From Bacteroidales bacterium (GTDB lineage Bacteria; Bacteroidota; Bacteroidia; Bacteroidales; BM520): DNA of 64,000 nt. The translations under genes were made by a program, and so were the position numbers. Positions 359 through 61,029 of the stretch are shown here, in pieces; positions within the stretch are counted from its first letter, which is position 1, and every line of letters begins with the position of its first letter. Below the pieces are notes generated by a model. It did not search any database. It was not told the DNA's origin and saw nothing but the letters and a program-made list of their open reading frames with translations. Location: assembly GCA_016285515.1 (NCBI GenBank), contig JAEEQW010000006.1, positions 78 through 64,077 of the forward strand. The letters run 5' to 3'.

Positions 359-1852
359 CTATTTATTTGAAAAAATAATGGTAATAATAGCTTGAATATC
401 CAAAATATTTATCACTCCATCACGGTTCACATCGGATTTCCCGATGCTAAAATGCTCAGGTGTTACGCCAATTATATAAGAACAAATCGAAATTATATCA
501 ATAACATCAACCGTACCGTCTTCATTTGCATCACCATAAAGGTAAAATTCATGCACACCTATATCTATTATATCGTCCAAAATTCTCGGATTGCCATAAA
601 AGTCGAATTCAGGAAGATGCAGACCTGTAGTATCCTGTGTTCCTCCATTGATTGCCGGACTTGAAGACTGAAGATGGCAGTCACCATTGGGCAAATCCAC
701 GAACAGCGGATCTTCATCGCTCATTTCTTCATACAACTGAAGAAATTGCTCATTATAAATCTTCTCACGTCCAAATTCAACGATACCATATCTGAACGAA
801 GGATGTGAATAAAGATCCCAGATGCAGATTTGTGAACTGTAAAGCGTATCGCCCGGTTTTTCTCCTGTGCTTTCCCATCGGTTACCCCAGAAAATACAGT
901 TGTTGAATACAGGATAGGCTTCCCCGAAGAACTGGACTCCACCGCCACCGCCGCCCCAACAGGTATTATTTACGACAACGAAGTTGTTTATAATTGGAGA
1001 GGAGATTGCACATGCCATACCTCCTCCATAATGCACGACATGATTGTTACGGAGAATTGCATTCGACATAACCACATTAAGATGACTGCTACGCTGGATC
1101 CCAATACCACCGGCATTTGTTGAATGATTGTTTTCAATCAAAGCTCTGTCAAGCACCACACTGCAACTGTCGAAATTAACGGCGCCGCCATAGCAGTTCG
1201 GACAGTCATTGTCATGAAAGTACATGTCCCTCATCTCAACATCACAATTGATAAAGAACATGCCACCACCATACATGTAAAGACTGACAGCCTCATCATA
1301 TATCCCAAGATTACCGTCAACCTCACAGTCATAAATATTAAAATTGGAATATTCGGCATACAATGCACCACCTTTAAATAATGTCAGATTGGATGTGAAC
1401 CTGCAATGTCCAATGGTGACATCTTCAACATTGGAAAACCTGACAGCACCGCCAAAATAAGGGTCCTCAATCATTTTGCCGTAGCTGAAATCGCAATATT
1501 CGAGCACAATAGGCCCGGTACACTCCGAAAAGGTGATGCCAGCCCATCCACCATCGAAACGATGTATATCATGAAAGTTAGTAGTATCTGTCACCGTAAA
1601 GACGATGTGGTTATATTCTGTTCCAACAGCAGACAAATCACCGCCTACGATTATCTTGAAATAACCGTCGAAAATCACCTTGGCTCCTTCAACTATAGTC
1701 AGCGACATACCTTTAGGTACAGTGACATCATCGACCACTAAAACTGTATCCGCATCCCATATACCTGACTGTTCTTCCGAAACTTCAATGGTCCGGGCGG
1801 AAATCACAATTGATAATAAGAATAATAACAGAAACGATAAAACTTTTTTCAT
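359..1852 (-). CDS. Secreted right-handed beta-helix (PbH1-repeat) protein with a C-terminal type-I dockerin
   Basis: The 497-aa ORF has an N-terminal signal peptide (MKKVLSFLLLFLLSIVISA). Its body has Gly/Asn-rich repeats typical of parallel beta-helix proteins (GGALYAE, GGGMFF, YGGAVNF, AGGIGI, YGGGMAC, WGGGGGGV). The C-terminus is a duplicated Ca-binding dockerin. Confidence 0.8.
   Translation of the reverse strand: MKKVLSFLLLFLLSIVISARTIEVSEEQSGIWDADTVLVVDDVTVPKGMSLTIVEGAKVIFDGYFKIIVGGDLSAVGTEYNHIVFTVTDTTNFHDIHRFDGGWAGITFSECTGPIVLEYCDFSYGKMIEDPYFGGAVRFSNVEDVTIGHCRFTSNLTLFKGGALYAEYSNFNIYDCEVDGNLGIYDEAVSLYMYGGGMFFINCDVEMRDMYFHDNDCPNCYGGAVNFDSCSVVLDRALIENNHSTNAGGIGIQRSSHLNVVMSNAILRNNHVVHYGGGMACAISSPIINNFVVVNNTCWGGGGGGVQFFGEAYPVFNNCIFWGNRWESTGEKPGDTLYSSQICIWDLYSHPSFRYGIVEFGREKIYNEQFLQLYEEMSDEDPLFVDLPNGDCHLQSSSPAINGGTQDTTGLHLPEFDFYGNPRILDDIIDIGVHEFYLYGDANEDGTVDVIDIISICSYIIGVTPEHFSIGKSDVNRDGVINILDIQAIITIIFSNK
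362..538 (-). other. Dockerin module (two F-hand-like Ca-binding segments)
   Basis: The sequence is YGDANEDGTVDVIDIISICSYIIG...SDVNRDGVINILDIQAIITIIF. It contains two DxNxDGxxxxxD loops, each followed by a helix, at the very C-terminus of the protein. Confidence 0.8.
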
Positions 1853-3922: not shown

Positions 3923-3925
3923 CTC

Positions 3926-16454: not shown

Positions 16455-16500
16455 CCTTGCCATCCGTGTTCAGGTTCCTCCATAATGTCTTAAACTGAAA

Positions 16501-16596: not shown

Positions 16597-16636
16597 ATAA
16601 AAAATGCATATATTTGCAGCGTAAAAACAGAATATT

Positions 16637-18079: not shown

Positions 18080-18128
18080 TGTGTGTGTGCTGTGCTGCTC
18101 TCAAAATAGTAGCCATCCCGAAAGAGGC

Positions 18129-18212: not shown

Positions 18213-18220
18213 CGAATAGT

Positions 18221-19576: not shown

Positions 19577-19704
19577 ATGCTGCTCTCAAAATAAGGGTGG
19601 AAAAATGACATTTTCTTCGATGAGGAAGACAAAAACGTGGGGAGGGCAACGCACCCGATCTCATCCACCACTCCGATCGTGGCTGCCAGTTATTGCAGCG
19701 GTAA

Positions 19705-20325: not shown

Positions 20326-20530
20326 CTTCTTGAATTGTTAAGGTTATGAGTTGCAAATATAGTTTATTTTGAAAAACTTCGTAAATTTGGACTTCAAAAT
20401 TACTTTTTGCAGATGAAGAACTATGTTGAAGAACTCCGATAGCGCGGAATGCTGGCCCAAATTATGCCAGGCACTGCCTATTATCACGATTTATTATTAT
20501 TTTTGCAACAAAAACAAATACAATAACATC

Positions 20531-25803: not shown

Positions 25804-26910
25804 TCATTGAAATATCAGATTGACAGTCGCCACAATGTCAAGTATGTTTATAATGCCGTCATTGTTAACATCGGCATTTGTGAATTCAATGGATTCAATA
25901 TCCGACATCATAAAAGATATTATACACTGAATATCATTAACATCGACTTTCATGTCTCCGTTTGCATCACCAGGCATTTCAGACGAATGACGGAACAGTC
26001 TATCCCTGTAGGCGAAAATACTTCCGTTGGACGATTGGAAAAGTCTGCTGATATTTATATCATATTCCATTCCGGAATTTATGTATTCCCACGTTTCTCC
26101 GTTATCAGATAAACGGTACACGCCAAACGGAGCAATATCCTTAAAGAATGTATTGTCAAAGGCGCCATATATATCATCTTCAGCGGTTATCATTATATCT
26201 ATAAATATTCCAGGATACTGAGACACAATAACCTGCCACGACTGTCCGTTGTCATCGGATTTATACACTCCCTCAGATGATGAAAGAAAGATGACTCCCT
26301 GGGAATTACTTGCCGCACCTGTACCGTAAAAATAAATTTTGTTCAGACTCGTCGGCTCCCACGTCATACCATAATCGTACGACAGAAAGAAACCACCTTC
26401 GCCATTATATGAAAAAGTACACAATATTAACATGCCATTGACCTCATAAATTTTATAAGCATAGCCCGAAACCGGCACATTTAAATTCGTCCACGTATCA
26501 CCGTAATCATGTGATATGTGTATTCCATACCAGTCAAGTCTTCCCACAATTATTACGCTGTCATTTGCATACAGGATCCCTTTATTAACCGGTATCTGTA
26601 TGGTGTCCCAGATTAAAGCATCATCAGACGAATACAGCAGCTGATTCCCATGATTGACGTATATCACATCATTATCATCTATGTAAACATTTCCACAGGA
26701 CACTGACATTCCTGTCAGATTCCATTCGTTTCCATTATTCGTCGATTTGTACAGACCATGATTTGTGGCGGCATACAGATTACCATTGGAAGTTCCGTCA
26801 ATATTGACGAGATTGCAACTGTCCGGCAAGGCGATTTCCGTCCAGAAATTCTGTGACATGGCAAATGATGCTATACTCATCATTATTGCTATCATTGTAA
26901 ACTTTTTCAT
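25804..26910 (-). CDS. BNR/Asp-box beta-propeller protein with a C-terminal dockerin
   Basis: The 368-aa ORF has a signal peptide. It has six Asp-box-like repeats (STNNGNEW, SSDDALIW, SHDYGDTW, SYDYGMTW, SDDNGQSW, SDNGETW). The C-terminus is a duplicated dockerin. Confidence 0.75.
   Translation of the reverse strand: MKKFTMIAIMMSIASFAMSQNFWTEIALPDSCNLVNIDGTSNGNLYAATNHGLYKSTNNGNEWNLTGMSVSCGNVYIDDNDVIYVNHGNQLLYSSDDALIWDTIQIPVNKGILYANDSVIIVGRLDWYGIHISHDYGDTWTNLNVPVSGYAYKIYEVNGMLILCTFSYNGEGGFFLSYDYGMTWEPTSLNKIYFYGTGAASNSQGVIFLSSSEGVYKSDDNGQSWQVIVSQYPGIFIDIMITAEDDIYGAFDNTFFKDIAPFGVYRLSDNGETWEYINSGMEYDINISRLFQSSNGSIFAYRDRLFRHSSEMPGDANGDMKVDVNDIQCIISFMMSDIESIEFTNADVNNDGIINILDIVATVNLIFQ
25807..25971 (-). 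other. Dockerin module
   Basis: The sequence is GDANGDMKVDVNDIQCIISFMMS...ADVNNDGIINILDIVATVNLIFQ. Its second segment is nearly identical in pattern to the dockerin at 362-538 (DVNRDGVINILDIQAIITIIF). Confidence 0.8.
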
Positions 26911-26912
26911 AA

Positions 26913-30754: not shown

Positions 30755-30975
30755 TCAACTATTTATTATTTTATTTCTTAAAAACGACACCATTTTTTCT
30801 TGGGTTTCGAAAATGGTTTTCAACTTCTTTTCGTACCGTTTTATGGAAAAATAATCCCTATTGAGGAGGATAGCTGCCTGTTTTTCGTCCATGCCAAGCA
30901 GATAAAGATGGCACAGGTTAACCAAAGCAGTGTTGGTCTTCACCCAACACTGCCTAAGAAAGATCTCGAATGATC
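30755..30975 (-). pseudogene. Truncated duplicate of the 3' end (HTH region) of the regulator gene at 23266..25026
   Basis: About 245 bp at 30731-30975 align nearly base for base with 23245-23495. The 62-aa ORF differs from the regulator C-terminus at only a few residues. The upstream part of the gene is absent. Confidence 0.8.
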
Positions 30976-30980
30976 CAAAA

Positions 30981-31062
30981 CATCCAATTGTTGATTATCG
31001 CCCATAATGTTGCCTGATTGCATGATTTGGCCCATGAGGCTGGTGATGTGGTATGCGGTTTG
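30981..31062 (-). pseudogene. Internal fragment of a T9SS C-terminal domain
   Basis: The minus-strand translation is QTAYHITSLMGQIMQSGNIMGDNQQLD. It parallels QNAYRITNLMGQTLQSGTLMGDNQQLD, which is encoded at 32598-32678. Confidence 0.7.
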
Positions 31063-49488: not shown

Positions 49489-49516
49489 AAAAAAAAGGGG
49501 AGACTAAAATCCCCCC
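49489..49516 (-). terminator. Rho-independent terminator of the giant gene
   Basis: The minus-strand RNA is GGGGGGA-UUUUAG-UCUCCCC, a 7-bp stem with one G-U pair. A U8 run follows. It lies 25 nt after the stop at 49541. Confidence 0.8.
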
Positions 49517-49540: not shown

Positions 49541-52500
49541 TTATTTACTAACGATAACACGTTTCTGAATAGCGTTACCATCATTGTTAATGATGTTGAA
49601 GATATAAACGCCTGATGACATATCAGAAGTGGAAACTGTTATTGAGTTAGCATCCACGCTTATATTTCTTACAACCTGACCAAGACTGTTGTAGATAGTA
49701 ATACTGTTCATGTTTTCACATTCAATAGTTACATCACCAGCAGTTGGGTTAGGATAAACATTAACACTGATGTTGAAATCATCAATACCTGTTTCTACAG
49801 CTACGTTAACTGTGCTTGGCAGTGATTCTGAACCATCAGGGCAAACTTCAGTAACTGTGTAGGAATAAGTACCGGAAGGAATGTTTACATAATCAACATA
49901 GGTTGTACCAGCATATTGTGAAGCGATAAGTTCACCTTGTCTGTAGATGTTATAAACCTGACCATCGATGAAGTCAAGAGGTTTATCCCATGTAAGGGTT
50001 ACATTTGGCTGACCACCAGCATTATCGTATACGGCTCTGAGGTTCTCAACTGGGAATCCGCCGCAAGCGAATGAACCGCTGAATGGGTTGGAGAGATTAG
50101 ATTCAACTCCATCGAAGCATACAACTGAGATATTGTAAACATAATCATCGTAAGAATTGATACCACTATCAACGTAAGTAGGTTGATCAACAGAAGCGAT
50201 CTTCACATTGTTCCTGTAAACATTGTATGTAAATGTACCATTTGTAGGAGCTGTCCAGTATAATGTCACTGTACCATCATTAAAGTTGAAAGCACCATAG
50301 AGGTCTGTAACAGCTGGGCATTCAGGAGCAACGGAGCTCTGGCAATCTGATGCTGAGTAGTAAGCGTAACCATACTGAGCCTTTACACAGTATTCATAGA
50401 TACCGTAATCAGGAGTGTCAGTATAAGTCAGGACTTCAGCAGCAACTGTTGCAACAACTTCGCTGTTTCTTGTGATGACGTAACCTGTCAAATCACCATA
50501 CTTGTCATTAGGAGCACCCCAAGTCATCACAATGTCACCACCATTAGGTACAGCTGTGAAATTCTTAGGAGCGTTAAGAGAAATCTGGAATTCTTCATTT
50601 GCAGGGATTGAAGAGCCTTGAGCATAATTAACTACAACAGTAATTGTCTGAAGGGCAACTTCATCTACTGAGCCGAAGAACTGAGGATCAACAACTGTTA
50701 CAGGATTATCAACAACGCCTGATACTGTGTAAGAAACTGCACCTGGCATTGCTGGCCATGTAGCTAAGAATGACAAGTTTTCATTGTCAACTGAGATATA
50801 AGTTACAGGCGGGAAGATTTCAGCAACAGTGATTGACTTGCAGACTGGTTGTGATACTACATAATTGTTATTTGATGCAAGATAAGAAACTGTAATACAA
50901 TAGTTATAAGTTGTATTGCCATTTTCTATATAATCAGTGTATGTAGTCTCGTTAATATTATAAATGTCAGCGAGATAAGCACCGTTTCTTGTAATTGTGT
51001 AGTAAACGAAGTCATTGTATGTATCAAGAGGAGCATTCCATGTAAGAGTTAATTCTTCGAAATTCTGACTTACATTCAAGTTAGAAATTTCATTAACGTC
51101 ATTAATGAATGTGCTTGAAGTACGATCTGAAGTACCGTATTCGTAAATAGCCTCAACTGAAACAGTGTGAACATCTTCGGTAGCAAGTTTGCAGATATAG
51201 CTCATATCTGATGTCATTCCTACCTTAACATTATCAATGTAAACATTGTAGTATTCAACTGCCAAAGGATAAGCAACCTGCCATGAAACGTCAGCTGTCA
51301 TGTTGACAACGATAGGTTGGTTAAGAATTACAGCTGGGAACATAGCACCCTGTTCGATAGTGATTGGGTGGCAGATTTCATCTGTAGAAACGATACCCTG
51401 AGGACCGTACTCTATAGTGATACAATATGTATATGCGCCAGGAACTGTAAGATAGTCAGTGAATGTGGTGTCATTGATATTATAGATATCGATAGGTGAT
51501 GAACCACCGGTAATATGATATCTGTAGAAGTCATTGAATCTGTCACTTGGACATGGATCCCAAGTTAATTCAACAATATTAAGAGATGGATTAGATACTC
51601 TGAAGTTGTGAATTTCATTGACTTCGATATCAACGTAATCTGTAACAAAATCTGACATACCGTTTGCATAAACTGCAGCTACACCGATTATATAAGTATC
51701 TTCTTCAACGAACTTGATAGTTGCGGTAGTTTCTGTAGTGTTGAGTGTAATGTAAGAATTATTACCCTGAACAGCAGATACGATATAGTATAATGGGTCT
51801 GAACCTGCGGTTGGTACCCAAGTTACAACAGCTGTCAAGTTTTCATGGTCAATATCCATTGAAACTACAGGATACAAACCATCTTCAACGAAGTGAGCTG
51901 TAAATACGCGGTCGTTTGTGATATAGAATGAATATTGAGTGCCGAAAGCAACTACGTTACCGTTTTCATCGGTCCAACTTACGAATTCATAACCGTCATT
52001 AACTGTTGCTGTTAATGTTACAAATTCATTTAAGAGATATGTACCGGCACCAGCTACTGTACCACCTTCTACAGGATCAACGTTTATAGTTACAGTGTGG
52101 TATTCGATAGCGAAGTGAGCTGTAAATGTACGGTCGCTTGTAATATTGAATGAATATTGAGCACCGGAAGCAACTACGTTGCCAGCTTCATCTGTCCAGT
52201 TCACAAATTGGTAATCACCGTTAGGAGTTGCTGTCAATGTTACTAATTCATCTAAGAGATATGTACCAGCACCGGTTACTGTACCACCGTCTGCAGGATC
52301 AACATTCAAAGTTACTGTGTAGTACTCGATAGCGAAGTGAGCTGTAAATGTGCGGTCGCTTGTAATATAGAATGAATATTGAGGACCGAAAGCAACTACG
52401 TTGCCAGCTTCATCTGTCCAGTTCACAAATTGGTAATCACCGTTAGGAGTTGCTGTTAATGTTACCATGTCATTGTAAATATATGTACCAGCACCGGTTA

Positions 52501-55500
52501 CTGTACCACCGTCTGCAGGGTCAACAGTTACAGTTACAGTGTAAGAGTCCATAGCGAAGTGAGCAACAAGAGTTCTGTTTACGGTTGCTATGAATGTGTA
52601 AGTGTCATCAGTTGAAATTTCAGCACCATTTTCTGTCCAGTTAATGAAGTAATATCCAGGGAATGGGTAAGCTATCAAATTAACTGTAGAACCTACGATG
52701 TAAGAACCAGCACCTGAAACAACACCATATTCTTCAGGATCAGCTGAAGCTGTGATAGTGATTGATTCAATGCTGAACTGAGCCATCAACCAAACGTTAT
52801 CATTAACAGTGAAAGAATAAGTTGCATCAGAAGAGATAAGAGCACCAGCTGAATACCAACCATCGAATGAGTAGTTTTCAGCAGGAACAGCTGTCAGGGT
52901 TGCAACGTCACCGCAATTGTAAGGGTTGGAAACACCTGTAATAGTACCGCCCTCTGTTGGGTTGACCCAAGCAGTGACTGTATATGAAGCCTGAGTGAAG
53001 TGTGCAAAAATGGTTATGTCTTCTGCAGCAATGAATGAGTAAGGATTATCGTAACTGAGGATATTACCGTTAGCATCAGCCCAATATTCAAAGGTATAGC
53101 AATCATCTGCAATTGCAAAAAGCTGAACCATATCACCAACATGGTAGAGGCCACCGCCTATAACGATACCGCCTGTTGAATAAGTGGAAACTTCAATGTT
53201 AACCGTTGTTACAGTGAAATTAGCATTTAATACACAATCTTCAACAACTGTGAATGAGAAGGAGTTATCACCTGAAACTATATTACCTTCGTTATTTGTC
53301 CAATAATTGAAAGTATAGCCATCATTTGCAGTAGCTGTAACGGTTGCTATGTCATGCTGTGTATAAACACCACCGCCAGTTACTGTACCAGCTTCTGCTG
53401 GGATAGCATTTACTATAACTGTATATTCTGCTAATTCATCAACTGTGATGAGGCCAGGGAATGGAGCGTATGAATAAAGGATATTACCAACCATACCACT
53501 CAAAACACTGTTTGTGATTGGGAGGAGATAGTAACCTTCTTCTGGAGCTGTTACACCAAATGTGCAAATCACACCGTTTTCACCTGAAATTGCTGTAGGA
53601 GGAATTGAATATCCGAGAATTCTCAGAACATTGTTATCGATAACGCTGGCAACAATATAGAAGTTGCTGTTTGTTCTGTCTGTAACTACAGCTGAACCGT
53701 CAACGTATGTCAGTTCACCGAGTTCGATATCGAACTGGAATCCATAAACATCATCAACAGGATTATTCAAGCTTACTGGAACTGTAATTTCTTCAGTTGC
53801 ATAGCCGAACAGGTTCTGAGGAATTGACAGAGTGTTTACTGATGAGAAGTAAGCTACCAAATCACGGTCTTCTGTAGCTGTGAATGACAATACTGGAGAC
53901 TCTGAAATGGAAATGTTGTTTTCCATCCAGTACATGAATGCATAACCCATAGCAGGAGTTGCTATGAGTGTAACCACGTCACCATAGCTATAAACACCGC
54001 CACCCAATACTGAGCCACCATCAACAGGATCAGCAGCTACTGTAATTGTAACGTCCAGTACGAAGTTAGCGATTAAAGTACGGCTCTCAACTACAACGAA
54101 TGTGTAAGAATTATCTAAACTGATTACATTGTCAAAATCATCTGTCCAATTTACAAATGTGTAACCTTCAGCAGCAGTAGCTGTCAAAGTAACGATATCA
54201 CCAGTCTCATAAACACCGGCACCGGTAATAGTACCACCTTCAGCAGGATTTGCGATTGCATTAATAACATATTCCTGCATTGCACCTACGATAACGAGAC
54301 CTGACAGAGGAGCGTATGAATAAAGGATATTACCTGCTTCATCACTCAAAACGTCATTTGTGATTGGGAGGAGGTAATTACCTTCTGCAGATGGCATTAC
54401 ATCAAATGTGCAGATGTCACCATAAGTTCCTGAAACAGGTGTTGGAGGAATTGAATATCCGAGAACTCTCAGGACATTGCCATCGATAACGGTAGCAACA
54501 ATATAGAAGTTGCTGCTTGTTCTGTCTGCAACTGTAGCTGATCCTTCAACGTATGTCAGATCACCGAGTTCGATATCGAACTGGAAGCCGTAAACATTAT
54601 CGATAGGATTATCGAGATATACAGGGACTGTTACAGGTTTGTCAACATAACCGATGAGGTTGGTTGGTATTGACAAAGTATTTATTGATGAGAAATAAGC
54701 AACTAAATTGAGGTCTTCGACAGCTGTGAATGACCAGAAAGCATCTGTTGAAACAATCTCATTGTCCTTCAGCCACCATCTGAATGCATAACCTTCAGCT
54801 GGGATAGCATTGACAATAACTTCGCTGCCGTATGGATAAACGCCACCGCCTGTTACTGTACCACCTTCTGTAGGATTTGCAGTAACTGTGATGTTGACTG
54901 ATGAGAAATTAGCAACAAATGAATGGTTTGCAGTAGCAACAAATGTCCATGAAGCATCTGTTGTTATTTCTGCACCGTTTTCTGTCCAGTTAATGAATGC
55001 GTAACCTTCAGCAGGGAATGCTGTCATTGTAACAGCAGCACCAATTGCGTAAACGCCAGCACCGGTTACAGTACCACCTTCAGCAGGATTTGCAACAGCT
55101 TCAACAGTAACACCGGAAATAGTGAGAGTACCATCAACTGTAGTAACGTTGTAGAGACCACCATCTACGTTTGACAGAACTGCACCATCAAGTGTCAAAG
55201 GATATACTCCGTTTTCGGCAGCCTGGAACTGGATTAAGCAGACAGGACCGTCAACACCGTCAATTTGTGCTGGTGGAATAGAATAGTCAAGAACTCTCAG
55301 AACATTGTCACTAATAGGCATTGCCATGATAATATGTGAATCGGAAAGTCTGTATGTCTTTTCAATTCCAACATAAGTCAATCCCTCAGGAATAGTTACA
55401 TCAAACTGGAAGCCGTAAACAACATCATTTGTGTTGTGCAAGTTTATTGGAACGTCTGTTACAACACCAGGAAGACCTGTTACACTTTCAACACTGATAA

Positions 55501-58500
55501 CATTGTTATTGGCGAAGTTTGCAACAAGATTTCTGTCAGAAACCAAAGTGAATGAATAAGTCTTATCTGCTGAAACTTCAACTCCGTTTTCTGTCCAATT
55601 TACGAATGTGTAATCATTTTCATCAAAAGAAACTGCAGTCAGAGTAACAACATCACCGTAGTAATAAGGATTGTCAAGACCCATAACCAAGCCATGACCT
55701 TCTGGATTTACTGTTACATTCACATAATAAGTATTGTGTAAGAAGTAAGCGACGAGGTCGCGGTCTTCAGTAGCAGTGAATTCATACAGTGCGTTTCTTG
55801 AAACTATATTTCCATCTTCTATCCAGCAGACGAATGAATAACCGATTTCAGGAGAAGCGCTAACTGCGACTGTTGCGCCGTAGATATATGCGCCACCACC
55901 TGTTACTGTACCGCCTTCTTCAGGGATAGCTGAAACTGTAATGTTAATCTGAGAAACAGAAAGTGTTCCATCTACGGTTGTCACATGGTACAAACTGCCA
56001 TCGATACCTGAAATAGCTGCTGTTGTTGCATCAATGTTCATTGGATAATCACCTGTCTCTGCTGCAACAACTTGAATAGTACAAATAGGACCTTCAGTTC
56101 CGAAAATTGCCTCTGGAGGCATTGCATAATCAAGGATTCTGATTACATTGCTCTTTCCATCAATAGGCATTCCCATGATGACGTGTGCTTCGGAAAGTCT
56201 GTCTGACTTTTCTACACCAACAAAAGTAAGACCATCAGGAAGAGTTATATCAAACTGGAAGCCATAAACAACATCATTATGATTAGTCAAATCAACAGGA
56301 ATATTGACTACAGTGTTTGGAAGAGCTTCCACATCTTCAACTACGAGGTAGTTATTGTAAACGAAGTTTGCAACAAGATTTCTGTCGGATGTTACTGTAA
56401 ATGAATAAGTTTCATCTTTTGAAACGATTACGCCATCTTCTGTCCATGAAATAAATGCATAATCATCGGAAGGTACTATTGCAGTCAAAGTGGCAACATC
56501 ACCATAATGATATGGATTGTCAACACCGCTGATTGTACCGAAACCTTCAGGATTTACATTTGCAGTGATATAATAATCAATGAGTTCGAAGTTAGCAACG
56601 AGGTTGCGGTCTACAGTAGCAGTAAATTCATACTGTGCGTTTCCTGTAACTATACTGCCATTTTCTGTCCAGTAGAGGAATGAATAACCGATTGCAGGAT
56701 AAGCGTTAACTACAACTGTTGTGCCATAGATATATGCACCGCCACCTGTTACTGTACCACCTTCTTCAGGAAGAGCAGAAACTGTAATGTTAACCTGAGA
56801 AACAGAAAGTGTTCCGTTTACGGTTGTCAAATGGAACAGACTGCCATCGATACCTGAAATAGCTGCTGTTGTTGCATCAACGTTCATTGGATAATCACCT
56901 GTCTCTGTTGCAACAACTTGAATAGTACAAATAGCACCTTCAGTTCCTGAAATAGCCTCTGGAGGCATTGCATAATCAAGGATTCTGATTACATTGCCAG
57001 CAATAGGCATTGCCATGAGGATGTGTGATTCGGAAAGTCTGTCTGACTTTTCTACACCAACAAAAGTAAGACCGTCAGGAATAGTTATATCAAACTGGAA
57101 GCCATAGACGACATCATTATGATTAATCAAATTAACAGGAATATCGACTAAAACGTTTGGAAGAGATTCAACATCTTCAACTACGAGGAAGTTATTGTAA
57201 ACGAAGTTAGCAACAATAACCATGTCGGATGTTACTGTAAATGAATAAGTCTCATCTTGTGAAACAACCACTCCATTTTCAGTCCATGCATCAAATGCGT
57301 ATTCATCGGAAGCTGGTGTTGCAGTCAAAGTGGCAACATCACCATAATGATAAGGATTGTCAACGCCGCTGATTGTACCGAAACCATCAGGATTTACAAT
57401 TGCAGTGATATAATAATCAACGAGTTCGAAGCAAGCAACAAAGCTGCGGTCGAGACCTGCTGCAAATATGTAAGGATTGTCGGTATATTCAGTCTCTCCT
57501 TCTTTCCAATATAAGAAAGCATAGCCTATATTAGGAGTAGCAGTAAGAGTAACTGTTTCACCTATATAATATACACCGTTGCCTGTGAAAGTACCACCGT
57601 CAATAGGATCAGCTGTCACGAAGATATTGACATCTTCGATAGTCAGAAGACCGTCAACAGTTTCGCTATAAAGTACATTACCCATCATGTCGGTTAAAAC
57701 TTCATTCTGAATAGCAAGGGTGAAAGTGCCTTCAACAGGAGCTGTGACATCAAATGTACAGATTGCACCGTCAGTGCCTGCCAATGGAACAGGTGGCATT
57801 GAATAGTCGATGACTCTCAGTACGTTGCCTGATATAACTTCTGCTGAAATATGGTGACTGTCATCATCTCTGTCAGTCAGGGCAATAGAGCCATAAACGT
57901 ATGTCATATCACCCAGTGGAATATCGAACTGGAAGCCATAAACCAAATCAACATCATTGTCGAGATCAACATTGATTGTTGCAGGCTGATCCACATGACC
58001 CATTAATGTTGTTGGAATAGACAGGACATTGACACCGATGAAATGAGCCACAAGATTTCTGTTACCTCTGACAGTGAAAGTGTAGATTGCATCGTCGGAA
58101 ACAACCAAACCGTTTTCTGTCCAGTTGGTAAACATATATCCGTCAGCTGGTGTAGCGGTCAGGACTGCTGTTTCAAAGTGATTATATGCACCTTCGCCAG
58201 TCACGACACCACCTTCAGCAGGATTAGCTGTTACACTAATATAATAGGTATTGAGTGACATAACAGCAATCAGTACGCGGTCAGCACCTGCTATGAATGT
58301 ATATTCAGGTGTTGAAGCAACGATAACTCCGTTTTCCAACCAGTCAACAAATGTATAACCCTCGTTAGGTGTTACGGTAACTGTAACTTGTTCTCCTGTG
58401 AAATATACGCCTGTACCGGTAGTAACACCGCCTTCCATAGGAACTGTGACAGCTTCGATATTAACGTCATCGATAGCCAGTTCTCCATCGCGTGTCTCAC

Positions 58501-60856
58501 AATAGAGAATATTTCCGTACAAATCGGAAAGAACAGGATCTGTAATAGTCAGTGGGAATACTTCCTCAGAGTGGGCTACAATCTCTAAAGTAACGATAGC
58601 ACCATCAGTTCCTGGAACAGCTGTAGGAGGCATTGAATAGCCGACTATTCTCAGAGTATTGTTTTCATAAAGGGTTGTGTTAACAACGAAATTTTCATTA
58701 GTTCTGTCAGTAACAGCTAATGAGCCATCAACATATTCGAGTTCACCAAGAGGAATGTCGAATTGGAATGCATAAACATCATCAATGTAATTATGCAGAT
58801 TGATAGCAATTTCCACGTTATTTTCACTATGAGCCACATAGTTGCCTATCCAAAGGACATTCAAAGGAAGGAAGTTGGCAACCAAGTTACGGTTTCCGGT
58901 AACGATGAAACTGTACTCTTCATCATTTGAAACTTCCACTCCATCTTCAGTCCAGTTGATGAATGCATATTCAGGAGCATGAACTGCTGTAAGCAGAGCT
59001 GTCTGTCCGTTGAGATATGTACCATAACCAGCAACCGAACCACCTTCAGCAGGATTAACTGTTGCGTTTATAATATATTGTTCAGTGCCGGAGATAACGA
59101 CATTGATACCAACAGGGATTGCATAATATTGATCAGAGTAAACAGCATATACCTGGAAATAATAGCTGCCTGCAGGATATATATTAATATAGGTATTGGT
59201 TTCAGAAGTGTAAGTCTCGTCATTTACCGTAATCATGTAACCTGTAAGACCTTCCTGTGTAGGAGCGTCCCATGTCAAAGTGATTTGGCCGTCACTTGTT
59301 GTGCTGGCAACGAGATTTGCGATAGGTTCAAGACCAACGTATGCGGAAGTGGCAACAGGTACTGATACACAACCATCAACATAGTTGGCAACAACTTCAT
59401 AGTCATAGGAATTATAGAATTCCACGTCAAAGTCAGCATACTCTGTACCTGTTGTGGTGTATGAAGCTATTAACACATCTGAATATGGAACATATTTGTT
59501 GATTGTATAATATTCAATCAAATGAGTTGTAAAAGGAGCTGTCCATGCGACATTTACCATCTTGACATTTAAAACTCCCTGAGCAGCTGTCAGTTCGGTA
59601 ACAGGATAGCCGCATTCAACAGGAAGGTTTATAATGCTTGTGCAAAAATCTTCGCTGGCACAACCATCATAAACTGCATTAACGCAGAAATGATAGTCAC
59701 CTGCTTCCATACCGCTGAGTGTGTACTCTGTCAGTTCTGTGAAAGCAACTTTGACACAAGTTCCGGCATTATCGTTAAAGCATCTTACTTCATAACCCAA
59801 AACATTAGGATTTACTGGAGCGGTCCAATAAACAGCTATTGTTCTTTCTTCAGGGTTAGCCATGCCATAGATGTTGGAAATATTATTGTCATCATCAACG
59901 CAGAAATACAAAGTGATATTTTTCTCTACCACTCTTGAATCGCATAAAACACCGTTATCGTTATGGGCAACAACGATGCCATAAGTATAAGTATGAGTTA
60001 CATGTGGCAAATCGGCATCAACGTAAGTGAAGATACCACCATCAACTTGAGCAATTTCAACATTATCGCGGTAGATTATATAATGGTCAACCGTTTCAAC
60101 GTTAGGAATTGACTTGGAAGCGATCACGTTAGCAGGCTTATAGACATTCATGTTGTCGATAGGCTCGATATCGCCCCAGCCCTTCTGACCGTCTTCGTTA
60201 GGATAATCGACCACAGCACAGATATACCAGCTGATAGGAGCTGAGTGGCTGTTTTCATATACATAGTCGAACTCAACACCATCGAGGGAAATGAGGTTAC
60301 TATAACCGTTAACGGCACCTTCCTCTGTAAATCTCAGAGTACTCAAGTTTTCACCTGTAGCCTTGACTGCTATAATAAGATCCTGAGTTTTGTCAATTTC
60401 TGTTCCAACAGAAACATAGTTAAAGGCGTCAGCAACTGCATCGGTAACCGTATATGAGTTAACGCGAGTGGCTGTAAAATCGCCTGAAGCCGGACCATTA
60501 GGGTCAGCTGTATAAACATCGACCTGATAATGGACACCTGTTGTTACAGTAGGGATGAACTTTACTTTTTCCAAAGTGAAAGGATAATCCGCTGTACTTG
60601 GGTATTCTGCAAGGACGCTTGCAGGAATTCTGAAAGCCATCCACAGAACGTTATCAGCCAATGTTCCTATTTCATTTGCTGGAGAGCCTTCGTAGTACTT
60701 GATTTCACTACTTGTAGGCAACTGCCAGTTCAGAGTGACATCATCATAATCTGCTGTCACTTCGAATTGTGAGACCGGACGACATTCGGTTCCCTGTGCC
60801 TGCGCAAAGAATGGAATCAGGCACATCACACTTAAGATTAATAAAATTTTTTTCAT
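49541..60856 (-). CDS. Giant (3771 aa) T9SS-sorted scaffoldin-like surface protein: N-terminal Fn3-like region, seven cohesin-like modules interleaved with 20 Listeria-Bacteroides repeats, a C-terminal Fn3-like array and a Por_Secre_tail CTD
   Basis: The ORF is one uninterrupted frame. The signal peptide is MKKILLILSVMCLIPFFAQA. Repeats of the form NPAEGGTVTGAGVY...VTLTATP.EGY.F.NWTENG...Y.F....R.LVA.F recur 20 times. VYGFQFDI modules recur 7 times. The CTD is VNVYPNPTAGDVTIE...ITIYNSLGQVV...GVYIFNI. Confidence 0.9.
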   Translation of the reverse strand: MKKILLILSVMCLIPFFAQAQGTECRPVSQFEVTADYDDVTLNWQLPTSSEIKYYEGSPANEIGTLADNVLWMAFRIPASVLAEYPSTADYPFTLEKVKFIPTVTTGVHYQVDVYTADPNGPASGDFTATRVNSYTVTDAVADAFNYVSVGTEIDKTQDLIIAVKATGENLSTLRFTEEGAVNGYSNLISLDGVEFDYVYENSHSAPISWYICAVVDYPNEDGQKGWGDIEPIDNMNVYKPANVIASKSIPNVETVDHYIIYRDNVEIAQVDGGIFTYVDADLPHVTHTYTYGIVVAHNDNGVLCDSRVVEKNITLYFCVDDDNNISNIYGMANPEERTIAVYWTAPVNPNVLGYEVRCFNDNAGTCVKVAFTELTEYTLSGMEAGDYHFCVNAVYDGCASEDFCTSIINLPVECGYPVTELTAAQGVLNVKMVNVAWTAPFTTHLIEYYTINKYVPYSDVLIASYTTTGTEYADFDVEFYNSYDYEVVANYVDGCVSVPVATSAYVGLEPIANLVASTTSDGQITLTWDAPTQEGLTGYMITVNDETYTSETNTYINIYPAGSYYFQVYAVYSDQYYAIPVGINVVISGTEQYIINATVNPAEGGSVAGYGTYLNGQTALLTAVHAPEYAFINWTEDGVEVSNDEEYSFIVTGNRNLVANFLPLNVLWIGNYVAHSENNVEIAINLHNYIDDVYAFQFDIPLGELEYVDGSLAVTDRTNENFVVNTTLYENNTLRIVGYSMPPTAVPGTDGAIVTLEIVAHSEEVFPLTITDPVLSDLYGNILYCETRDGELAIDDVNIEAVTVPMEGGVTTGTGVYFTGEQVTVTVTPNEGYTFVDWLENGVIVASTPEYTFIAGADRVLIAVMSLNTYYISVTANPAEGGVVTGEGAYNHFETAVLTATPADGYMFTNWTENGLVVSDDAIYTFTVRGNRNLVAHFIGVNVLSIPTTLMGHVDQPATINVDLDNDVDLVYGFQFDIPLGDMTYVYGSIALTDRDDDSHHISAEVISGNVLRVIDYSMPPVPLAGTDGAICTFDVTAPVEGTFTLAIQNEVLTDMMGNVLYSETVDGLLTIEDVNIFVTADPIDGGTFTGNGVYYIGETVTLTATPNIGYAFLYWKEGETEYTDNPYIFAAGLDRSFVACFELVDYYITAIVNPDGFGTISGVDNPYHYGDVATLTATPASDEYAFDAWTENGVVVSQDETYSFTVTSDMVIVANFVYNNFLVVEDVESLPNVLVDIPVNLINHNDVVYGFQFDITIPDGLTFVGVEKSDRLSESHILMAMPIAGNVIRILDYAMPPEAISGTEGAICTIQVVATETGDYPMNVDATTAAISGIDGSLFHLTTVNGTLSVSQVNITVSALPEEGGTVTGGGAYIYGTTVVVNAYPAIGYSFLYWTENGSIVTGNAQYEFTATVDRNLVANFELIDYYITANVNPEGFGTISGVDNPYHYGDVATLTAIVPSDDYAFISWTEDGVIVSKDETYSFTVTSDRNLVANFVYNNYLVVEDVEALPNTVVNIPVDLTNHNDVVYGFQFDITLPDGLTFVGVEKSDRLSEAHVIMGMPIDGKSNVIRILDYAMPPEAIFGTEGPICTIQVVAAETGDYPMNIDATTAAISGIDGSLYHVTTVDGTLSVSQINITVSAIPEEGGTVTGGGAYIYGATVAVSASPEIGYSFVCWIEDGNIVSRNALYEFTATEDRDLVAYFLHNTYYVNVTVNPEGHGLVMGLDNPYYYGDVVTLTAVSFDENDYTFVNWTENGVEVSADKTYSFTLVSDRNLVANFANNNVISVESVTGLPGVVTDVPINLHNTNDVVYGFQFDVTIPEGLTYVGIEKTYRLSDSHIIMAMPISDNVLRVLDYSIPPAQIDGVDGPVCLIQFQAAENGVYPLTLDGAVLSNVDGGLYNVTTVDGTLTISGVTVEAVANPAEGGTVTGAGVYAIGAAVTMTAFPAEGYAFINWTENGAEITTDASWTFVATANHSFVANFSSVNITVTANPTEGGTVTGGGVYPYGSEVIVNAIPAEGYAFRWWLKDNEIVSTDAFWSFTAVEDLNLVAYFSSINTLSIPTNLIGYVDKPVTVPVYLDNPIDNVYGFQFDIELGDLTYVEGSATVADRTSSNFYIVATVIDGNVLRVLGYSIPPTPVSGTYGDICTFDVMPSAEGNYLLPITNDVLSDEAGNILYSYAPLSGLVIVGAMQEYVINAIANPAEGGTITGAGVYETGDIVTLTATAAEGYTFVNWTDDFDNVISLDNSYTFVVVESRTLIANFVLDVTITVAADPVDGGSVLGGGVYSYGDVVTLIATPAMGYAFMYWMENNISISESPVLSFTATEDRDLVAYFSSVNTLSIPQNLFGYATEEITVPVSLNNPVDDVYGFQFDIELGELTYVDGSAVVTDRTNSNFYIVASVIDNNVLRILGYSIPPTAISGENGVICTFGVTAPEEGYYLLPITNSVLSGMVGNILYSYAPFPGLITVDELAEYTVIVNAIPAEAGTVTGGGVYTQHDIATVTATANDGYTFNYWTNNEGNIVSGDNSFSFTVVEDCVLNANFTVTTVNIEVSTYSTGGIVIGGGLYHVGDMVQLFAIADDCYTFEYWADANGNILSYDNPYSFIAAEDITIFAHFTQASYTVTAWVNPTEGGTITGVSNPYNCGDVATLTAVPAENYSFDGWYSAGALISSDATYSFTVNDNVWLMAQFSIESITITASADPEEYGVVSGAGSYIVGSTVNLIAYPFPGYYFINWTENGAEISTDDTYTFIATVNRTLVAHFAMDSYTVTVTVDPADGGTVTGAGTYIYNDMVTLTATPNGDYQFVNWTDEAGNVVAFGPQYSFYITSDRTFTAHFAIEYYTVTLNVDPADGGTVTGAGTYLLDELVTLTATPNGDYQFVNWTDEAGNVVASGAQYSFNITSDRTFTAHFAIEYHTVTINVDPVEGGTVAGAGTYLLNEFVTLTATVNDGYEFVSWTDENGNVVAFGTQYSFYITNDRVFTAHFVEDGLYPVVSMDIDHENLTAVVTWVPTAGSDPLYYIVSAVQGNNSYITLNTTETTATIKFVEEDTYIIGVAAVYANGMSDFVTDYVDIEVNEIHNFRVSNPSLNIVELTWDPCPSDRFNDFYRYHITGGSSPIDIYNINDTTFTDYLTVPGAYTYCITIEYGPQGIVSTDEICHPITIEQGAMFPAVILNQPIVVNMTADVSWQVAYPLAVEYYNVYIDNVKVGMTSDMSYICKLATEDVHTVSVEAIYEYGTSDRTSSTFINDVNEISNLNVSQNFEELTLTWNAPLDTYNDFVYYTITRNGAYLADIYNINETTYTDYIENGNTTYNYCITVSYLASNNNYVVSQPVCKSITVAEIFPPVTYISVDNENLSFLATWPAMPGAVSYTVSGVVDNPVTVVDPQFFGSVDEVALQTITVVVNYAQGSSIPANEEFQISLNAPKNFTAVPNGGDIVMTWGAPNDKYGDLTGYVITRNSEVVATVAAEVLTYTDTPDYGIYEYCVKAQYGYAYYSASDCQSSVAPECPAVTDLYGAFNFNDGTVTLYWTAPTNGTFTYNVYRNNVKIASVDQPTYVDSGINSYDDYVYNISVVCFDGVESNLSNPFSGSFACGGFPVENLRAVYDNAGGQPNVTLTWDKPLDFIDGQVYNIYRQGELIASQYAGTTYVDYVNIPSGTYSYTVTEVCPDGSESLPSTVNVAVETGIDDFNISVNVYPNPTAGDVTIECENMNSITIYNSLGQVVRNISVDANSITVSTSDMSSGVYIFNIINNDGNAIQKRVIVSK
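51885..52550 (-). repeat. Three tandem, near-identical 219-bp coding repeats (Listeria-Bacteroides repeat units 18-20)
   Basis: The protein unit is YTVT..VDPADGGTVTGAGTY....VTLTATPNGDYQFVNWTDEAGNVVA.G.QYSF.ITSDRTFTAHFAIEY, repeated three times. The DNA copies are visibly near-identical, for example around 52120-52250 versus 52340-52470. Confidence 0.85.
53444..53833 (-). other. Cohesin-like module 7 (subtype A), approximate bounds
   Basis: The sequence is LSIPQNLFGYATEEITVPVSLNNPVDDVYGFQFDIELGELTYVDGSAVVTDRTNSNF. The FQFD codons are at 53729-53740. Confidence 0.6.
54290..54679 (-). other. Cohesin-like module 6 (subtype A), approximate bounds
   Basis: The sequence is LSIPTNLIGYVDKPVTVPVYLDNPIDNVYGFQFDIELGDLTYVEGSATVADRTSSNF. 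The FQFD codons are at 54575-54586. Confidence 0.6.
55115..55504 (-). other. Cohesin-like module 5 (subtype B), approximate bounds
   Basis: The sequence is VYGFQFDVTIPEGLTYVGIEKTYRLSDSH...VDGTLTI. The FQFD codons are at 55400-55411. Confidence 0.6.
55964..56353 (-). other. Cohesin-like module 4 (subtype B), approximate bounds
   Basis: This is a near-duplicate of module 3 (VYGFQFDITLPDGLTFVGVEKSDRLSEAH). The FQFD codons are at 56249-56260. Confidence 0.6.
56804..57193 (-). other. Cohesin-like module 3 (subtype B), approximate bounds
   Basis: The sequence is LVVEDVESLPNVLVDIPVNLINHNDVVYGFQFDITIPDGLTFVGVEKSDRLSESH...VNGTLSV. The FQFD codons are at 57089-57100. Confidence 0.6.
57638..58027 (-). 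other. Cohesin-like module 2 (subtype A), approximate bounds
   Basis: The sequence is NVLSIPTTLMGHVDQPATINVDLDNDVDLVYGFQFDIPLGDMTYVYGS...VDGLLTI. The FQFD codons are at 57923-57934. Confidence 0.6.
58472..58861 (-). other. Cohesin-like module 1 (subtype A), approximate bounds
   Basis: The sequence is NVLWIGNYVAHSENNVEIAINLHNYIDDVYAFQFDIPLGELEYVDGSLAVTDRTNENF...TLRIVGYSMPPTAVPGTDGAIVTLEIV...RDGELAI. The FQFD codons are at 58757-58768. Confidence 0.6.
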
Positions 60857-61029
60857 AAATTTGAATTTTATTGATTATTACTTTATTTTTCTAACCATTT
60901 AATATTCAATAATATAGCACGCCACTCGAACGCATAGTGCCCTACACGCCCAAGCATTGTACTTTATCTTGCAAATATATAATAAATTTGCGAAATACCG
61001 TATCTTATTGGATTTTTTTTAACCGATTG

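What the first reader, a model, noticed from the sequence alone, without database searches (positions are those of the whole stretch)
49541..60856. T9SS-anchored scaffoldin-like giant protein with seven cohesin-like modules in a Bacteroidales genome
The 3771-aa minus-strand ORF has a Sec signal peptide and a Por_Secre_tail-type T9SS C-terminal domain. Between about aa 665 and 2470 it carries seven modules of about 130 aa that recur every 825-850 nt. The FQFD codons are at 58757, 57923, 57089, 56249, 55400, 54575 and 53729. Each module follows the cohesin (PF00963) pattern as I know it. It opens with a strand plus 'G....v.vpV.L.N....vyGFQFDi.....l.yv.g'. The middle is 'gNvlRi.gYs.pp....G.dG.ic.f.v.a...G...l.i'. 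It closes with 'vdG.l.i'. Every module is bracketed by Listeria-Bacteroides (Flg_new/TIGR02543-type) repeats, 20 in total. The order is LBR-Coh-LBR seven times, followed by seven more LBRs and an Fn3-like array. Two unlinked genes in the same window end in canonical dockerins. Multi-cohesin scaffoldins are established for Gram-positive cellulosomes that are anchored by SLH domains or sortase. A seven-cohesin scaffoldin delivered and attached by the type IX secretion system would be a different, essentially undescribed way to build a cell-surface multi-protein complex.
Basis: partly seen in the sequence, partly recalled or inferred. Interest (0 to 1): 0.9.

Follow-up and report, generated by a model that had tools for sequence, protein, structure and literature searches.

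The report
Type IX-secreted seven-cohesin scaffold protein
A rumen Bacteroidales genome encodes a giant secreted protein with seven genuine but unannotated cohesin modules, part of a cohesin-dockerin protein-assembly kit that is wired to the Gram-negative type IX secretion system rather than to a Gram-positive cell wall.

Summary
The ORF is 3771 aa. It has seven 139-aa modules marked by FQFD, 20 Listeria-Bacteroides repeats and a type A T9SS C-terminal domain. Two other genes in the window end in Pfam-significant dockerins.

The modules are real, divergent cohesins. Three of the seven pass Pfam's PF00963 threshold when scanned alone. An AlphaFold model (pLDDT 92) gives cohesins as all 50 listed PDB fold matches.

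The same MAG has a second locus with 8-cohesin and 5-cohesin T9SS proteins next to a dockerin+CTD protein. That makes at least 20 cohesins in one genome. The module family covers 3401 clusters (50% identity) in metagenomes. It often carries a T9SS CTD, and sometimes a dockerin in the same chain.

One dockerin cargo belongs to a family in which 118 of the 120 best homologues end in a T9SS CTD instead of a dockerin.

Dockerin binding, surface anchoring and the route by which CTD-less dockerin proteins cross the outer membrane were not tested.

There is precedent. A CTD-bearing tandem-cohesin scaffoldin was inferred in silico for Cloacimonadota in 2021, and cohesin and dockerin counts have been reported for rumen Bacteroidetes bins. 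I rate this a new variant of a known kind, of fairly high interest.

The parts
60972..60979 (-). Bacteroides-type -7 promoter box TAtaTTTG, about 116 nt upstream of the ATG
   Evidence: Read directly from the sequence. It matches the TAnnTTTG consensus, which I know from the Bacteroides promoter literature. This is a consensus match only.
60797..60856 (-). Sec (SPI-type) signal peptide, aa 1-20: MKKILLILSVMCLIPFFAQA|QG
   Evidence: Translation, judged by inspection. No predictor was available.
59072..60796 (-). N-terminal region, aa 21-595, with weak Fn3/Ig-like repeats and no CBM
   Evidence: Pfam fn3 in 3 stretches (53.6 bits). The PDB sequence search gave only weak Fn3 hits.
58868..59071 (-). 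LBR 1 (Flg_new_2 / InlB B-repeat)
58457..58870 (-). Cohesin 1 (class A), aa 663-800
   Evidence: AF2 pLDDT 92.3. All 50 listed Foldseek PDB hits are cohesins. HMM score 204 bits.
58037..58459 (-). LBR 2-3
57623..58039 (-). Cohesin 2 (class A), aa 940-1078
   Evidence: 46-53% identical to cohesins 1, 6 and 7. No Pfam hit when scanned alone.
57197..57625 (-). LBR 4-5
56786..57202 (-). Cohesin 3 (class B), aa 1219-1357
   Evidence: 84-85% identical to cohesin 4
56357..56788 (-). LBR 6-7
55940..56362 (-). Cohesin 4 (class B), aa 1499-1639
   Evidence: PF00963 35.7 bits, E 1.2e-8, profile positions 3-139 of 139
55508..55942 (-). LBR 8-9
55103..55513 (-). Cohesin 5 (class B), aa 1782-1918
   Evidence: PF00963 28.4 bits
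54686..55105 (-). LBR 10-11
54272..54691 (-). Cohesin 6 (class A), aa 2056-2195
   Evidence: 69% identical to cohesin 7
53840..54265 (-). LBR 12-13
53426..53845 (-). Cohesin 7 (class A), aa 2338-2477
   Evidence: PF00963 26.1 bits
51884..53419 (-). LBR 14-20, seven consecutive repeats. The last three form a 222-nt DNA tandem repeat.
49784..51883 (-). C-terminal spacer region, aa 2992-3691, with Fn3-like repeats that have no significant family match
49544..49783 (-). T9SS type A C-terminal sorting domain
   Evidence: PF18962 46.3 bits and TIGR04183 42.4 bits, at the extreme C-terminus
49489..49516 (-). Intrinsic terminator directly after the stop codon: GGGGGGA-loop-TCTCCCC followed by T8
   Evidence: Read directly from the sequence
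359..1852 (-). Candidate partner 1: Sec signal + right-handed beta-helix + C-terminal type I dockerin (nt 362-547), no CTD
   Evidence: Pfam. PDB dockerin matches. The AF2 beta-helix core has pLDDT above 90. 118 of its 120 best homologues carry a T9SS CTD instead of a dockerin.
25804..26910 (-). Candidate partner 2: Sec signal + BNR/sortilin-like beta-propeller + C-terminal type I dockerin (nt 25807-25983), no CTD
   Evidence: Pfam. PDB sortilin, GH74 and dockerin matches.

Best explanation
The gene encodes a non-catalytic scaffold protein. It is exported first by Sec and then by the type IX secretion system. Seven divergent but genuine cohesin modules are held apart by rigid pairs of Listeria-Bacteroides repeats. 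The cohesins fall into two sequence classes arranged A-A-B-B-B-A-A.

It is one of at least three multi-cohesin T9SS proteins in this Bacteroidales MAG, carrying 7, 8 and 5 cohesins. These cohesins most likely bind the type-I-like, Ca-binding dockerins found on other secreted proteins of the same organism. The result would be a multi-protein array at or near the cell surface, a Gram-negative counterpart of a cellulosome-type scaffoldin. The known cargo are beta-helix, beta-propeller and repeat proteins rather than recognised cellulases.

Shown here: the domain identities, the architecture, co-occurrence within one genome, the linkage of this cohesin family with dockerins and T9SS CTDs, and replacement of a CTD by a dockerin in one cargo family.

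Inferred: cohesin-dockerin binding, cell-surface attachment after CTD cleavage, and what the complex does.
For: Cohesin identity:
- PF00963 passes the gathering threshold for M4, M5 and M7 scanned alone.
- 21 of 37 family modules hit PF00963 and no other family competes.
- The AF2 model has pLDDT 92.3. All 50 listed Foldseek PDB hits are cohesins of type I, II, III or archaeal origin, with TM 0.58-0.81.
- A family profile against PDB sequences gives the 5n5p cohesin at E 3e-8, and 13 of 16 hits are cohesins.

T9SS: CTD hits above cut-off. Five further full-length CTD proteins and two short CTD-like ORFs lie in the window.

Dockerins: two in the window, each with both Ca loops intact.

Same assembly, GCA_016648615.1: a second locus has three adjacent genes. 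These are a dockerin+CTD protein, an 8-cohesin+17-LBR+CTD protein and a 5-cohesin+6-LBR+CTD protein.

Family-level linkage:
- 3401 clusters at 50% identity match the module profile.
- Of the top 150, 97 have a CTD by a broadened HMM and 21 carry a dockerin in the same chain.
- Of 80 metagenome loci found with this genome's dockerins, 29 encode this cohesin family within 6 kb. Of 132 dockerin ORFs, 23 also contain a cohesin.

CTD-to-dockerin swap at an exact junction in the beta-helix cargo family.

The 3771-aa form recurs in several independent assemblies, so it is not an assembly artefact.
Against: - No binding test was possible.
- The window's two dockerin proteins have no CTD and no lipoprotein signal, so nothing known would take them across the outer membrane.
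- No CBM is present on the scaffold, and no recognisable CAZyme domain on the three dockerin proteins seen. The parallel with cellulosomes is architectural only.
- Four of the seven modules do not reach Pfam significance when scanned alone. A whole-protein scan misses PF00963 entirely.
- Assignment of the two loci to one genome rests on MAG binning.
- No T9SS machinery genes lie in the window.
Confidence: 0.6

Rival explanations
1. The protein is a giant T9SS surface adhesin. Its cohesin-fold modules serve only as structural or ligand-binding beta-sandwiches, for example binding host, plant or other-cell surfaces, and do not bind dockerins. The dockerins in the genome have unrelated roles.
For: LBR (InlB B-repeat) arrays and Fn3-like arrays are typical of Bacteroidales surface adhesins, and NCBI names the orthologues 'InlB B-repeat-containing protein'. 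There is no CBM, and the cargo are not CAZymes. The dockerin proteins lack an outer-membrane export signal. Non-cellulosomal cohesins without known partners exist, for example 2xdh from Archaeoglobus, among the best fold matches.
Against: Cohesins of this family and dockerins are fused in one polypeptide in 21 of the 150 closest relatives, and are neighbours in 29 of 80 dockerin loci. In the same MAG a dockerin+CTD gene sits directly next to two multi-cohesin genes. A Q-x-D motif in strand 3 and an R...Y motif in strand 5 are conserved in at least 18 of the genome's 20 cohesins.
Confidence: 0.2
2. The scaffold is exported by the T9SS but released rather than anchored, as free protein or on vesicles. 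It would act as a soluble cross-linker of dockerin proteins away from the cell.
For: From my knowledge of the T9SS literature, type A CTD cargo in non-Porphyromonas Bacteroidota are often released rather than attached to LPS. Nothing in the sequence distinguishes anchoring from release.
Against: A long Fn3-like stalk of about 700 aa lies between the last LBR and the CTD. It looks like a spacer that projects the array away from a membrane attachment point. This is inference only.
Confidence: 0.1
3. The surface cohesins capture dockerin-bearing enzymes secreted by other rumen organisms, such as Ruminococcus ('enzyme piracy'), rather than the cell's own proteins.
For: This would solve the export problem for CTD-less dockerin proteins. 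The rumen is rich in free dockerin enzymes from Firmicutes (PMC6487960).
Against: The genome encodes its own dockerins, and their second segments are nearly identical to each other (DVN[RN]DG[VI]INILDI). Cohesin-dockerin pairs are generally species-specific (PMC6487960 introduction).
Confidence: 0.05

Closest known systems
Cellulosomal scaffoldins of Clostridia and Ruminococcus (CipA, ScaA/ScaB; PDB 1ohz, 4fl4, 5n5p)
   Same: A non-catalytic protein with tandem cohesins of the same jelly-roll fold. The dockerins in the same genome have duplicated Ca-binding segments. Several scaffold proteins occur per genome, and relatives include cohesin+dockerin 'adaptor' architectures.
   Different: - The host is Gram-negative.
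- Export and attachment use a T9SS CTD instead of SLH, sortase or an anchoring scaffoldin.
- The linkers are folded LBR pairs rather than Pro/Thr-rich segments.
- There is no CBM.
- The known cargo are not recognised CAZymes.
- Sequence identity to solved cohesins is only 9-20%.
Ca. Stygibacter (Cloacimonadota) 3755-aa scaffoldin-like protein with tandem cohesins, CBM2/3 and a T9SS-type CTD (Williams et al. 2021, PMC8542988)
   Same: The same concept: a tandem-cohesin scaffold with a CTD for self-surface attachment in a member of the FCB group, plus dockerin proteins that carry only a signal peptide. Both cases were inferred from sequence alone.
   Different: A different phylum and habitat. 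The Stygibacter protein has CBMs, and its dockerins sit on GH18, GH57 and peptidases. Here there is no CBM, the spacers are LBRs, there are at least three scaffolds per genome, and there is evidence that a dockerin replaced a CTD.
Non-cellulosomal cohesin-dockerin pairs (Archaeoglobus fulgidus cohesin 2xdh; Clostridium perfringens NagJ/NanJ cohesin-dockerin toxin complexes 2jh2, 2ozn, 2vo8)
   Same: Cohesin fold (TMq 0.79 to 2xdh) used outside cellulose degradation.
   Different: Those proteins carry one or a few cohesins on enzymes, not a 7-module scaffold, and have no link to the T9SS.
Giant T9SS surface proteins of Bacteroidota built from repeats (SprB-type adhesins, LBR/InlB-B-repeat proteins)
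   Same: Size, Sec signal plus type A CTD, and long arrays of small folded repeats (PMC9251779).
   Different: Those are not known to carry cohesins. Here cohesins are interleaved at a regular period of about 280 aa.

Membership tests
Cohesin (Pfam PF00963) | Sequence match to the family model above the curated threshold (24.1 bits) | tested here: met
   Scanned alone, M4 scores 35.7, M5 28.4 and M7 26.1 bits. M1, M2, M3 and M6 give no hit alone but are 33-85% identical to the hitting modules. 21 of 37 family members hit PF00963. A whole-protein scan misses it.
Cohesin (Pfam PF00963) | Nine-stranded beta-sandwich jelly-roll fold | tested here: met
   The AF2 model of M1 has pLDDT 92.3 and is all-beta. 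All 50 listed Foldseek PDB matches are cohesins, with probability 1.0 and TMq 0.58-0.81.
Cohesin (Pfam PF00963) | Ca-dependent, high-affinity binding of a dockerin | not testable with these tools
This needs ELISA, ITC or AF-Multimer.
Cellulosomal scaffoldin | Several tandem cohesins on a non-catalytic secreted protein | tested here: met
   Seven cohesins and no catalytic domain in Pfam or NCBIfam.
Cellulosomal scaffoldin | Carbohydrate-binding module that targets the substrate | tested here: not met
   No CBM family in Pfam or NCBIfam at E<=1. The N- and C-terminal regions give only weak Fn3 matches.
Cellulosomal scaffoldin | Dockerin-bearing plant-cell-wall enzymes in the same genome | tested here: inconclusive
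   Three dockerin proteins were seen: beta-helix, BNR propeller and a CarboxypepD_reg-repeat giant. None has a recognised GH, PL or CE domain. The beta-helix resembles PL6, GH28 and tailspike folds only generically, with TM of 0.39 or less. The whole genome was not available.
Cellulosomal scaffoldin | Cell attachment through SLH, sortase or a type II dockerin | tested here: not met
   None of these is present. The C-terminus is a T9SS CTD.
T9SS type A cargo | C-terminal sorting domain (TIGR04183 / PF18962) at the extreme C-terminus | tested here: met
   42.4 bits (cut-off 23) and 46.3 bits (gathering threshold 27), at aa 3700-3769 of 3771.
T9SS type A cargo | N-terminal Sec signal peptide | tested here: met
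   MKKILLILSVMCLIPFFAQA|QG, by inspection. No predictor was run.
T9SS type A cargo | T9SS machinery in the genome, and CTD cleavage and attachment by PorU/PorV | not testable with these tools
   No machinery genes lie in the 64-kb window. Five other full-length CTD proteins in the window argue indirectly that the system is present.
Dockerin type I (PF00404), the two partner genes | Family match above threshold and two F-hand Ca-binding segments (D-x-[ND]-x-D-G-...-D) | tested here: met
   37.3 and 33.9 bits against a gathering threshold of 22.9. Both loops are intact in both proteins. Both match solved dockerins.
Listeria-Bacteroides repeat (Flg_new_2, PF18998) | Family match | tested here: met
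   20 stretches, 758.5 bits. Positions were mapped.

The most novel reading that the evidence does not exclude
In these Bacteroidales the dockerin acts as a trans-acting substitute for the T9SS sorting domain. Proteins that have only a Sec signal and a C-terminal dockerin would bind, in the Ca-containing periplasm, to cohesins on a folded CTD-bearing scaffold. They would then be carried through the SprA translocon with it ('hitch-hiking'). One CTD would export and anchor up to seven passengers.

The evidence that does not exclude this, and mildly suggests it:
- The beta-helix cargo belongs to a family in which 118 of the 120 best homologues end in a T9SS CTD, and only this lineage ends in a dockerin, at the same junction.
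- The T9SS moves folded proteins through a very large barrel (PMC9251779).
- CTD-less dockerin proteins, and cohesin+dockerin proteins with only a signal peptide, are common among relatives.
Probability: 0.15. Interest if true: 0.9.

Novelty: new variant of a known kind. Interest (0 to 1): 0.68.

Why it matters
Cohesin-dockerin assembly is treated as a hallmark of Gram-positive cellulosome producers. Rumen Bacteroidota are described as lacking it (PMC5831590; PMC9177762).

This work shows a Bacteroidales MAG with at least 20 cohesins on three T9SS cargo proteins. These cohesins belong to a family of thousands of metagenomic clusters that annotation pipelines label only as 'InlB B-repeat' proteins or hypothetical proteins. 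If the cohesins bind their dockerins, Bacteroidota have a second, unrecognised way to organise surface proteins alongside PULs, and rumen 'cellulosome gene' censuses undercount it.

The CTD-to-dockerin swap also yields a concrete, testable question about T9SS cargo recognition: can a protein be exported by piggy-backing on a CTD-bearing partner? Finally, the LBR-spaced cohesin array is a ready-made modular display scaffold for engineering Gram-negative bacteria.

Tried and rejected
1. Whole-protein Pfam and NCBIfam scans gave no cohesin hit. Only isolated modules gave hits. This explains why public annotation misses the cohesins.
2. The search for homologous proteins found nothing, either with the 7-module alignment or with module 4 alone. 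This is a limit of the word index, because the exhaustive search found 3401 clusters.
4. PDB sequence searches of the N-terminal 580 aa and the C-terminal 700 aa gave only marginal Fn3 hits. No function was assigned to these regions.
5. The AF2 model of the beta-helix cargo has a core pLDDT above 90. Foldseek returned only generic right-handed beta-helix matches (PL6, GH28, tailspikes, AlgG) with TM of 0.39 or less, so no activity could be assigned. The dockerin part of that model is unreliable because the MSA has a CTD at that position.
6. BLASTP between the beta-helix+dockerin protein and the neighbouring 1100-aa beta-helix+CTD protein showed no homology. They are not paralogues.
7. Peer et al. 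2009 (non-cellulosomal cohesins) could not be read.
9. TRF cannot see the period of about 840 nt because its limit is 500. The repeat finder did see it.
10. The 'generic Ig/CARDB-like domain' reading was rejected. No such family competes with Cohesin among 37 modules, and no non-cohesin fold appears among the 50 listed matches.
Full report
OBSERVATION. The minus-strand ORF at 49541..60856 is real: 3771 aa with an ATG start. FQFD occurs exactly seven times, at aa 697, 975, 1253, 1533, 1816, 2091 and 2373. The seven 139-aa modules align over their whole length at 33-85% pairwise identity, with 21 invariant columns. DNA-level direct repeats show the same periods. Pfam finds Flg_new_2 20 times (758 bits) and Por_Secre_tail at aa 3700-3768. 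NCBIfam finds TIGR04183. My domain map reads: signal peptide; about 575 aa of weak Fn3-like repeats; LBR; [Coh-LBR-LBR]x6; Coh; LBRx7; about 700 aa of spacer; CTD. The two dockerins are confirmed at ORF 359..1852(-) and ORF 25804..26910(-). A six-frame HMM scan finds no further cohesin or dockerin in the window. The gene has a Bacteroides-type -7 box upstream and a strong hairpin plus T8 terminator just after the stop codon, so it looks monocistronic.

WHAT THE MODULES ARE. A whole-protein Pfam scan does not report Cohesin. Scanned alone, M4, M5 and M7 pass the PF00963 gathering threshold of 24.1 bits, with 35.7, 28.4 and 26.1 bits. An AlphaFold2 model of M1, built on the 7-module alignment, has mean pLDDT 92.3 and is all-beta. 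In a Foldseek search of the PDB, all 50 listed matches are cohesins. They include types I, II and III, the archaeal non-cellulosomal cohesin 2xdh and the C. perfringens cohesins, at probability 1.0, TMq 0.58-0.81 and 9-20% identity. A 37-module family profile hits the R. flavefaciens cohesin 5n5p at E 3e-8, and 13 of its 16 PDB hits are cohesins. Of those 37 modules, 21 hit PF00963 individually and no other family competes. The 'generic Ig/CARDB' alternative is therefore rejected. The seven modules form two classes. Class A is M1, M2, M6 and M7 (43-69% identical). Class B is M3, M4 and M5 (55-85%). Identity between classes is 33-40%.

CONTEXT AND SYSTEM. The window comes from NCBI assembly GCA_016648615.1 and JGI metagenome 3300041006. 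Orthologues are named 'InlB B-repeat-containing protein [Bacteroidales bacterium]', so the cohesins are unannotated in public records. The 3771-aa form recurs in several independent assemblies. Close relatives lie in a water-buffalo Bacteroidales MAG and in a MAG labelled Marinilabiliales.

An exhaustive profile search finds 3401 clusters (50% identity) at E<=1e-3 and 246 at E<=1e-30. Among the top 150, most carry three modules and one carries fourteen. By a broadened local HMM, 97 end in a T9SS CTD. Twenty-one carry a dockerin in the same chain, and 19 of those have no CTD. Pfam confirms Cohesin, Dockerin_1 and Por_Secre_tail on a sample, including a C10 peptidase-LBR-Coh-Doc-CTD protein.

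The second-best hit is encoded in the same assembly as the window. That locus (L008) has three adjacent genes. The first is a 2484-aa repeat protein with a dockerin followed by a CTD. The second is a 2466-aa protein with 8 cohesins, 17 LBRs and a CTD. The third is a 1239-aa protein with 5 cohesins, 6 LBRs and a CTD. The MAG therefore has at least 20 cohesins, which are 26-86% identical and form about 11 clusters at 50% identity. It also has at least three dockerins. I then scanned metagenomes with this genome's dockerins. Of the 80 loci kept, 36 hold two or more dockerin ORFs and 29 encode this cohesin family within 6 kb. Of 132 dockerin ORFs, 23 also contain a cohesin.

HOW IT MOST LIKELY WORKS. 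Shown: Sec signal (by inspection), type A CTD, seven cohesins, canonical dockerins in the same genome, and tight family-level linkage between cohesin, dockerin and CTD. Inferred: the protein crosses the outer membrane through the T9SS. Its CTD is removed and it is attached to, or released at, the surface. Its cohesins then bind dockerin-bearing proteins, and the LBR pairs act as rigid spacers. The second Ca-binding segments of the two window dockerins are almost identical (DVNRDGVINILDI and DVNNDGIINILDI), which suggests a shared specificity. Across all 20 cohesins of the MAG, the best-conserved positions include Q-x-D in strand 3 and R...Y in strand 5. From memory, these strands belong to the dockerin-binding 8-3-6-5 sheet of clostridial cohesins. 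I did not test that here.

AN UNRESOLVED PROBLEM AND A CLUE. Both window dockerin proteins have an ordinary Sec signal, no lipobox cysteine and no CTD. No known route would take them across the outer membrane to a surface scaffold. The beta-helix cargo has 246 homologues. Of the best 120, 118 end in a T9SS CTD. This count comes from a local HMM. Twenty of them carry a precomputed PF18962 annotation. Only the window's own cluster and one relative at 67% identity end in a dockerin, and the junction is at exactly the same point after the conserved ...IDxGxxE motif. So in an otherwise T9SS-secreted family, a dockerin replaced the sorting domain. This fits the dockerin being an alternative ticket to the surface. 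It raises the speculative possibility that cargo docks onto the scaffold in the periplasm and is co-exported. The T9SS does transport folded proteins (PMC9251779). I found no report of hitch-hiking through it.

COMPARISON WITH WHAT IS KNOWN. In architecture this is a scaffoldin. It fails two classical scaffoldin features: there is no CBM, and there is no SLH, sortase or type II dockerin anchor. The three cargo proteins seen are not recognisable CAZymes, and the beta-helix is only generically PL6-, GH28- or tailspike-like. The closest published idea is the 3755-aa tandem-cohesin, CBM and CTD protein inferred for Ca. Stygibacter in Cloacimonadota (PMC8542988). For rumen Bacteroidetes, the literature holds only counts. 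Dockerins are 8.8% and cohesins 1.7% Bacteroidetes-assigned in one bovine metagenome (PMC6487960). One Prevotellaceae RUG has a two-cohesin protein (PMC5830445). Camel-rumen Bacteroidetes bins have up to 11 dockerins and a few cohesins (PMC6071333). Other papers state that Bacteroidetes lack these modules (PMC5831590; PMC9177762). A 2024 genome-wide census of cellulosome producers does not mention Bacteroidota or the T9SS (PMC11557425).

VERDICT. The cohesin and T9SS interpretation is supported at the sequence and fold level. Binding, anchoring and biological role remain inferred. The novelty is real but not categorical, so I rate this a new variant of a known kind. The added findings are the multi-scaffold system in one MAG, the size of the unannotated family and the CTD-to-dockerin swap. 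Interest 0.68.

DEAD ENDS.

Noticed in passing
window 359-1852 (-), and P0172-P0291: The beta-helix+dockerin protein belongs to a family in which 118 of the 120 best homologues end in a T9SS CTD. Only two end in a dockerin, joined at the identical point. A dockerin has replaced a T9SS sorting domain.
   Followed up: yes
L008 (same assembly, GCA_016648615.1), genes at 2363-9817, 10001-17401 and 17546-21265: A second locus in the same MAG has three adjacent genes: a 2484-aa dockerin+CTD protein, an 8-cohesin/17-LBR/CTD protein and a 5-cohesin/6-LBR/CTD protein.
   Followed up: yes
window 25804-30215 (-): The BNR+dockerin gene starts 2 nt after the stop of an 1100-aa beta-helix+CTD gene, so the two are a likely operon. 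This stretch has unusually low GC (0.32-0.34, against 0.40-0.45 elsewhere), which suggests a horizontally acquired island.
   Followed up: partly
window 12344-14887 (-) and the 12-16 kb region: A segment of higher GC (about 0.50) carries a Laminin_G_3 + BNR sialidase-like protein with a T9SS CTD. Together with the giant protein, the window holds six full-length CTD-bearing ORFs and two short CTD-like ORFs.
   Followed up: partly
window 30943-31062 and 31107-31697 (-): Two short ORFs (40 and 196 aa) give weak CTD matches. The CTD-like stretch in the longer one is internal (aa 95-159). They may be a disrupted or decayed T9SS cargo gene.
   Followed up: no
L003 7280-10969; L013, L034 and L035 (metagenome loci): A recurrent 'X-dockerin-cohesin' architecture, with the dockerin followed about 70 aa later by a cohesin in the same chain. 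It occurs in a Bacteroidaceae MAG and in metagenome contigs. Such proteins could chain head-to-tail.
   Followed up: partly
window 16637-19576 (+) and 21691-22857 (-): Three AAA_14/DUF4143-type ATPase genes are clustered within 6 kb. Their function is unknown and they appear unrelated to the finding.
   Followed up: no
window 1858-2676 (-): The ORF immediately upstream of the beta-helix+dockerin gene (5-nt gap) gives a weak BamP-family match: 34 bits against a cut-off of 230. This is not significant, but BamP is an outer-membrane biogenesis factor.
   Followed up: no
window 51889-52564: The last three LBRs form a 222-nt tandem repeat at 81-86% DNA identity, much more recent than the other repeats. 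Orthologues carry 6 or 7 cohesins and range from 3348 to 3848 aa, so copy number varies between strains.
   Followed up: partly
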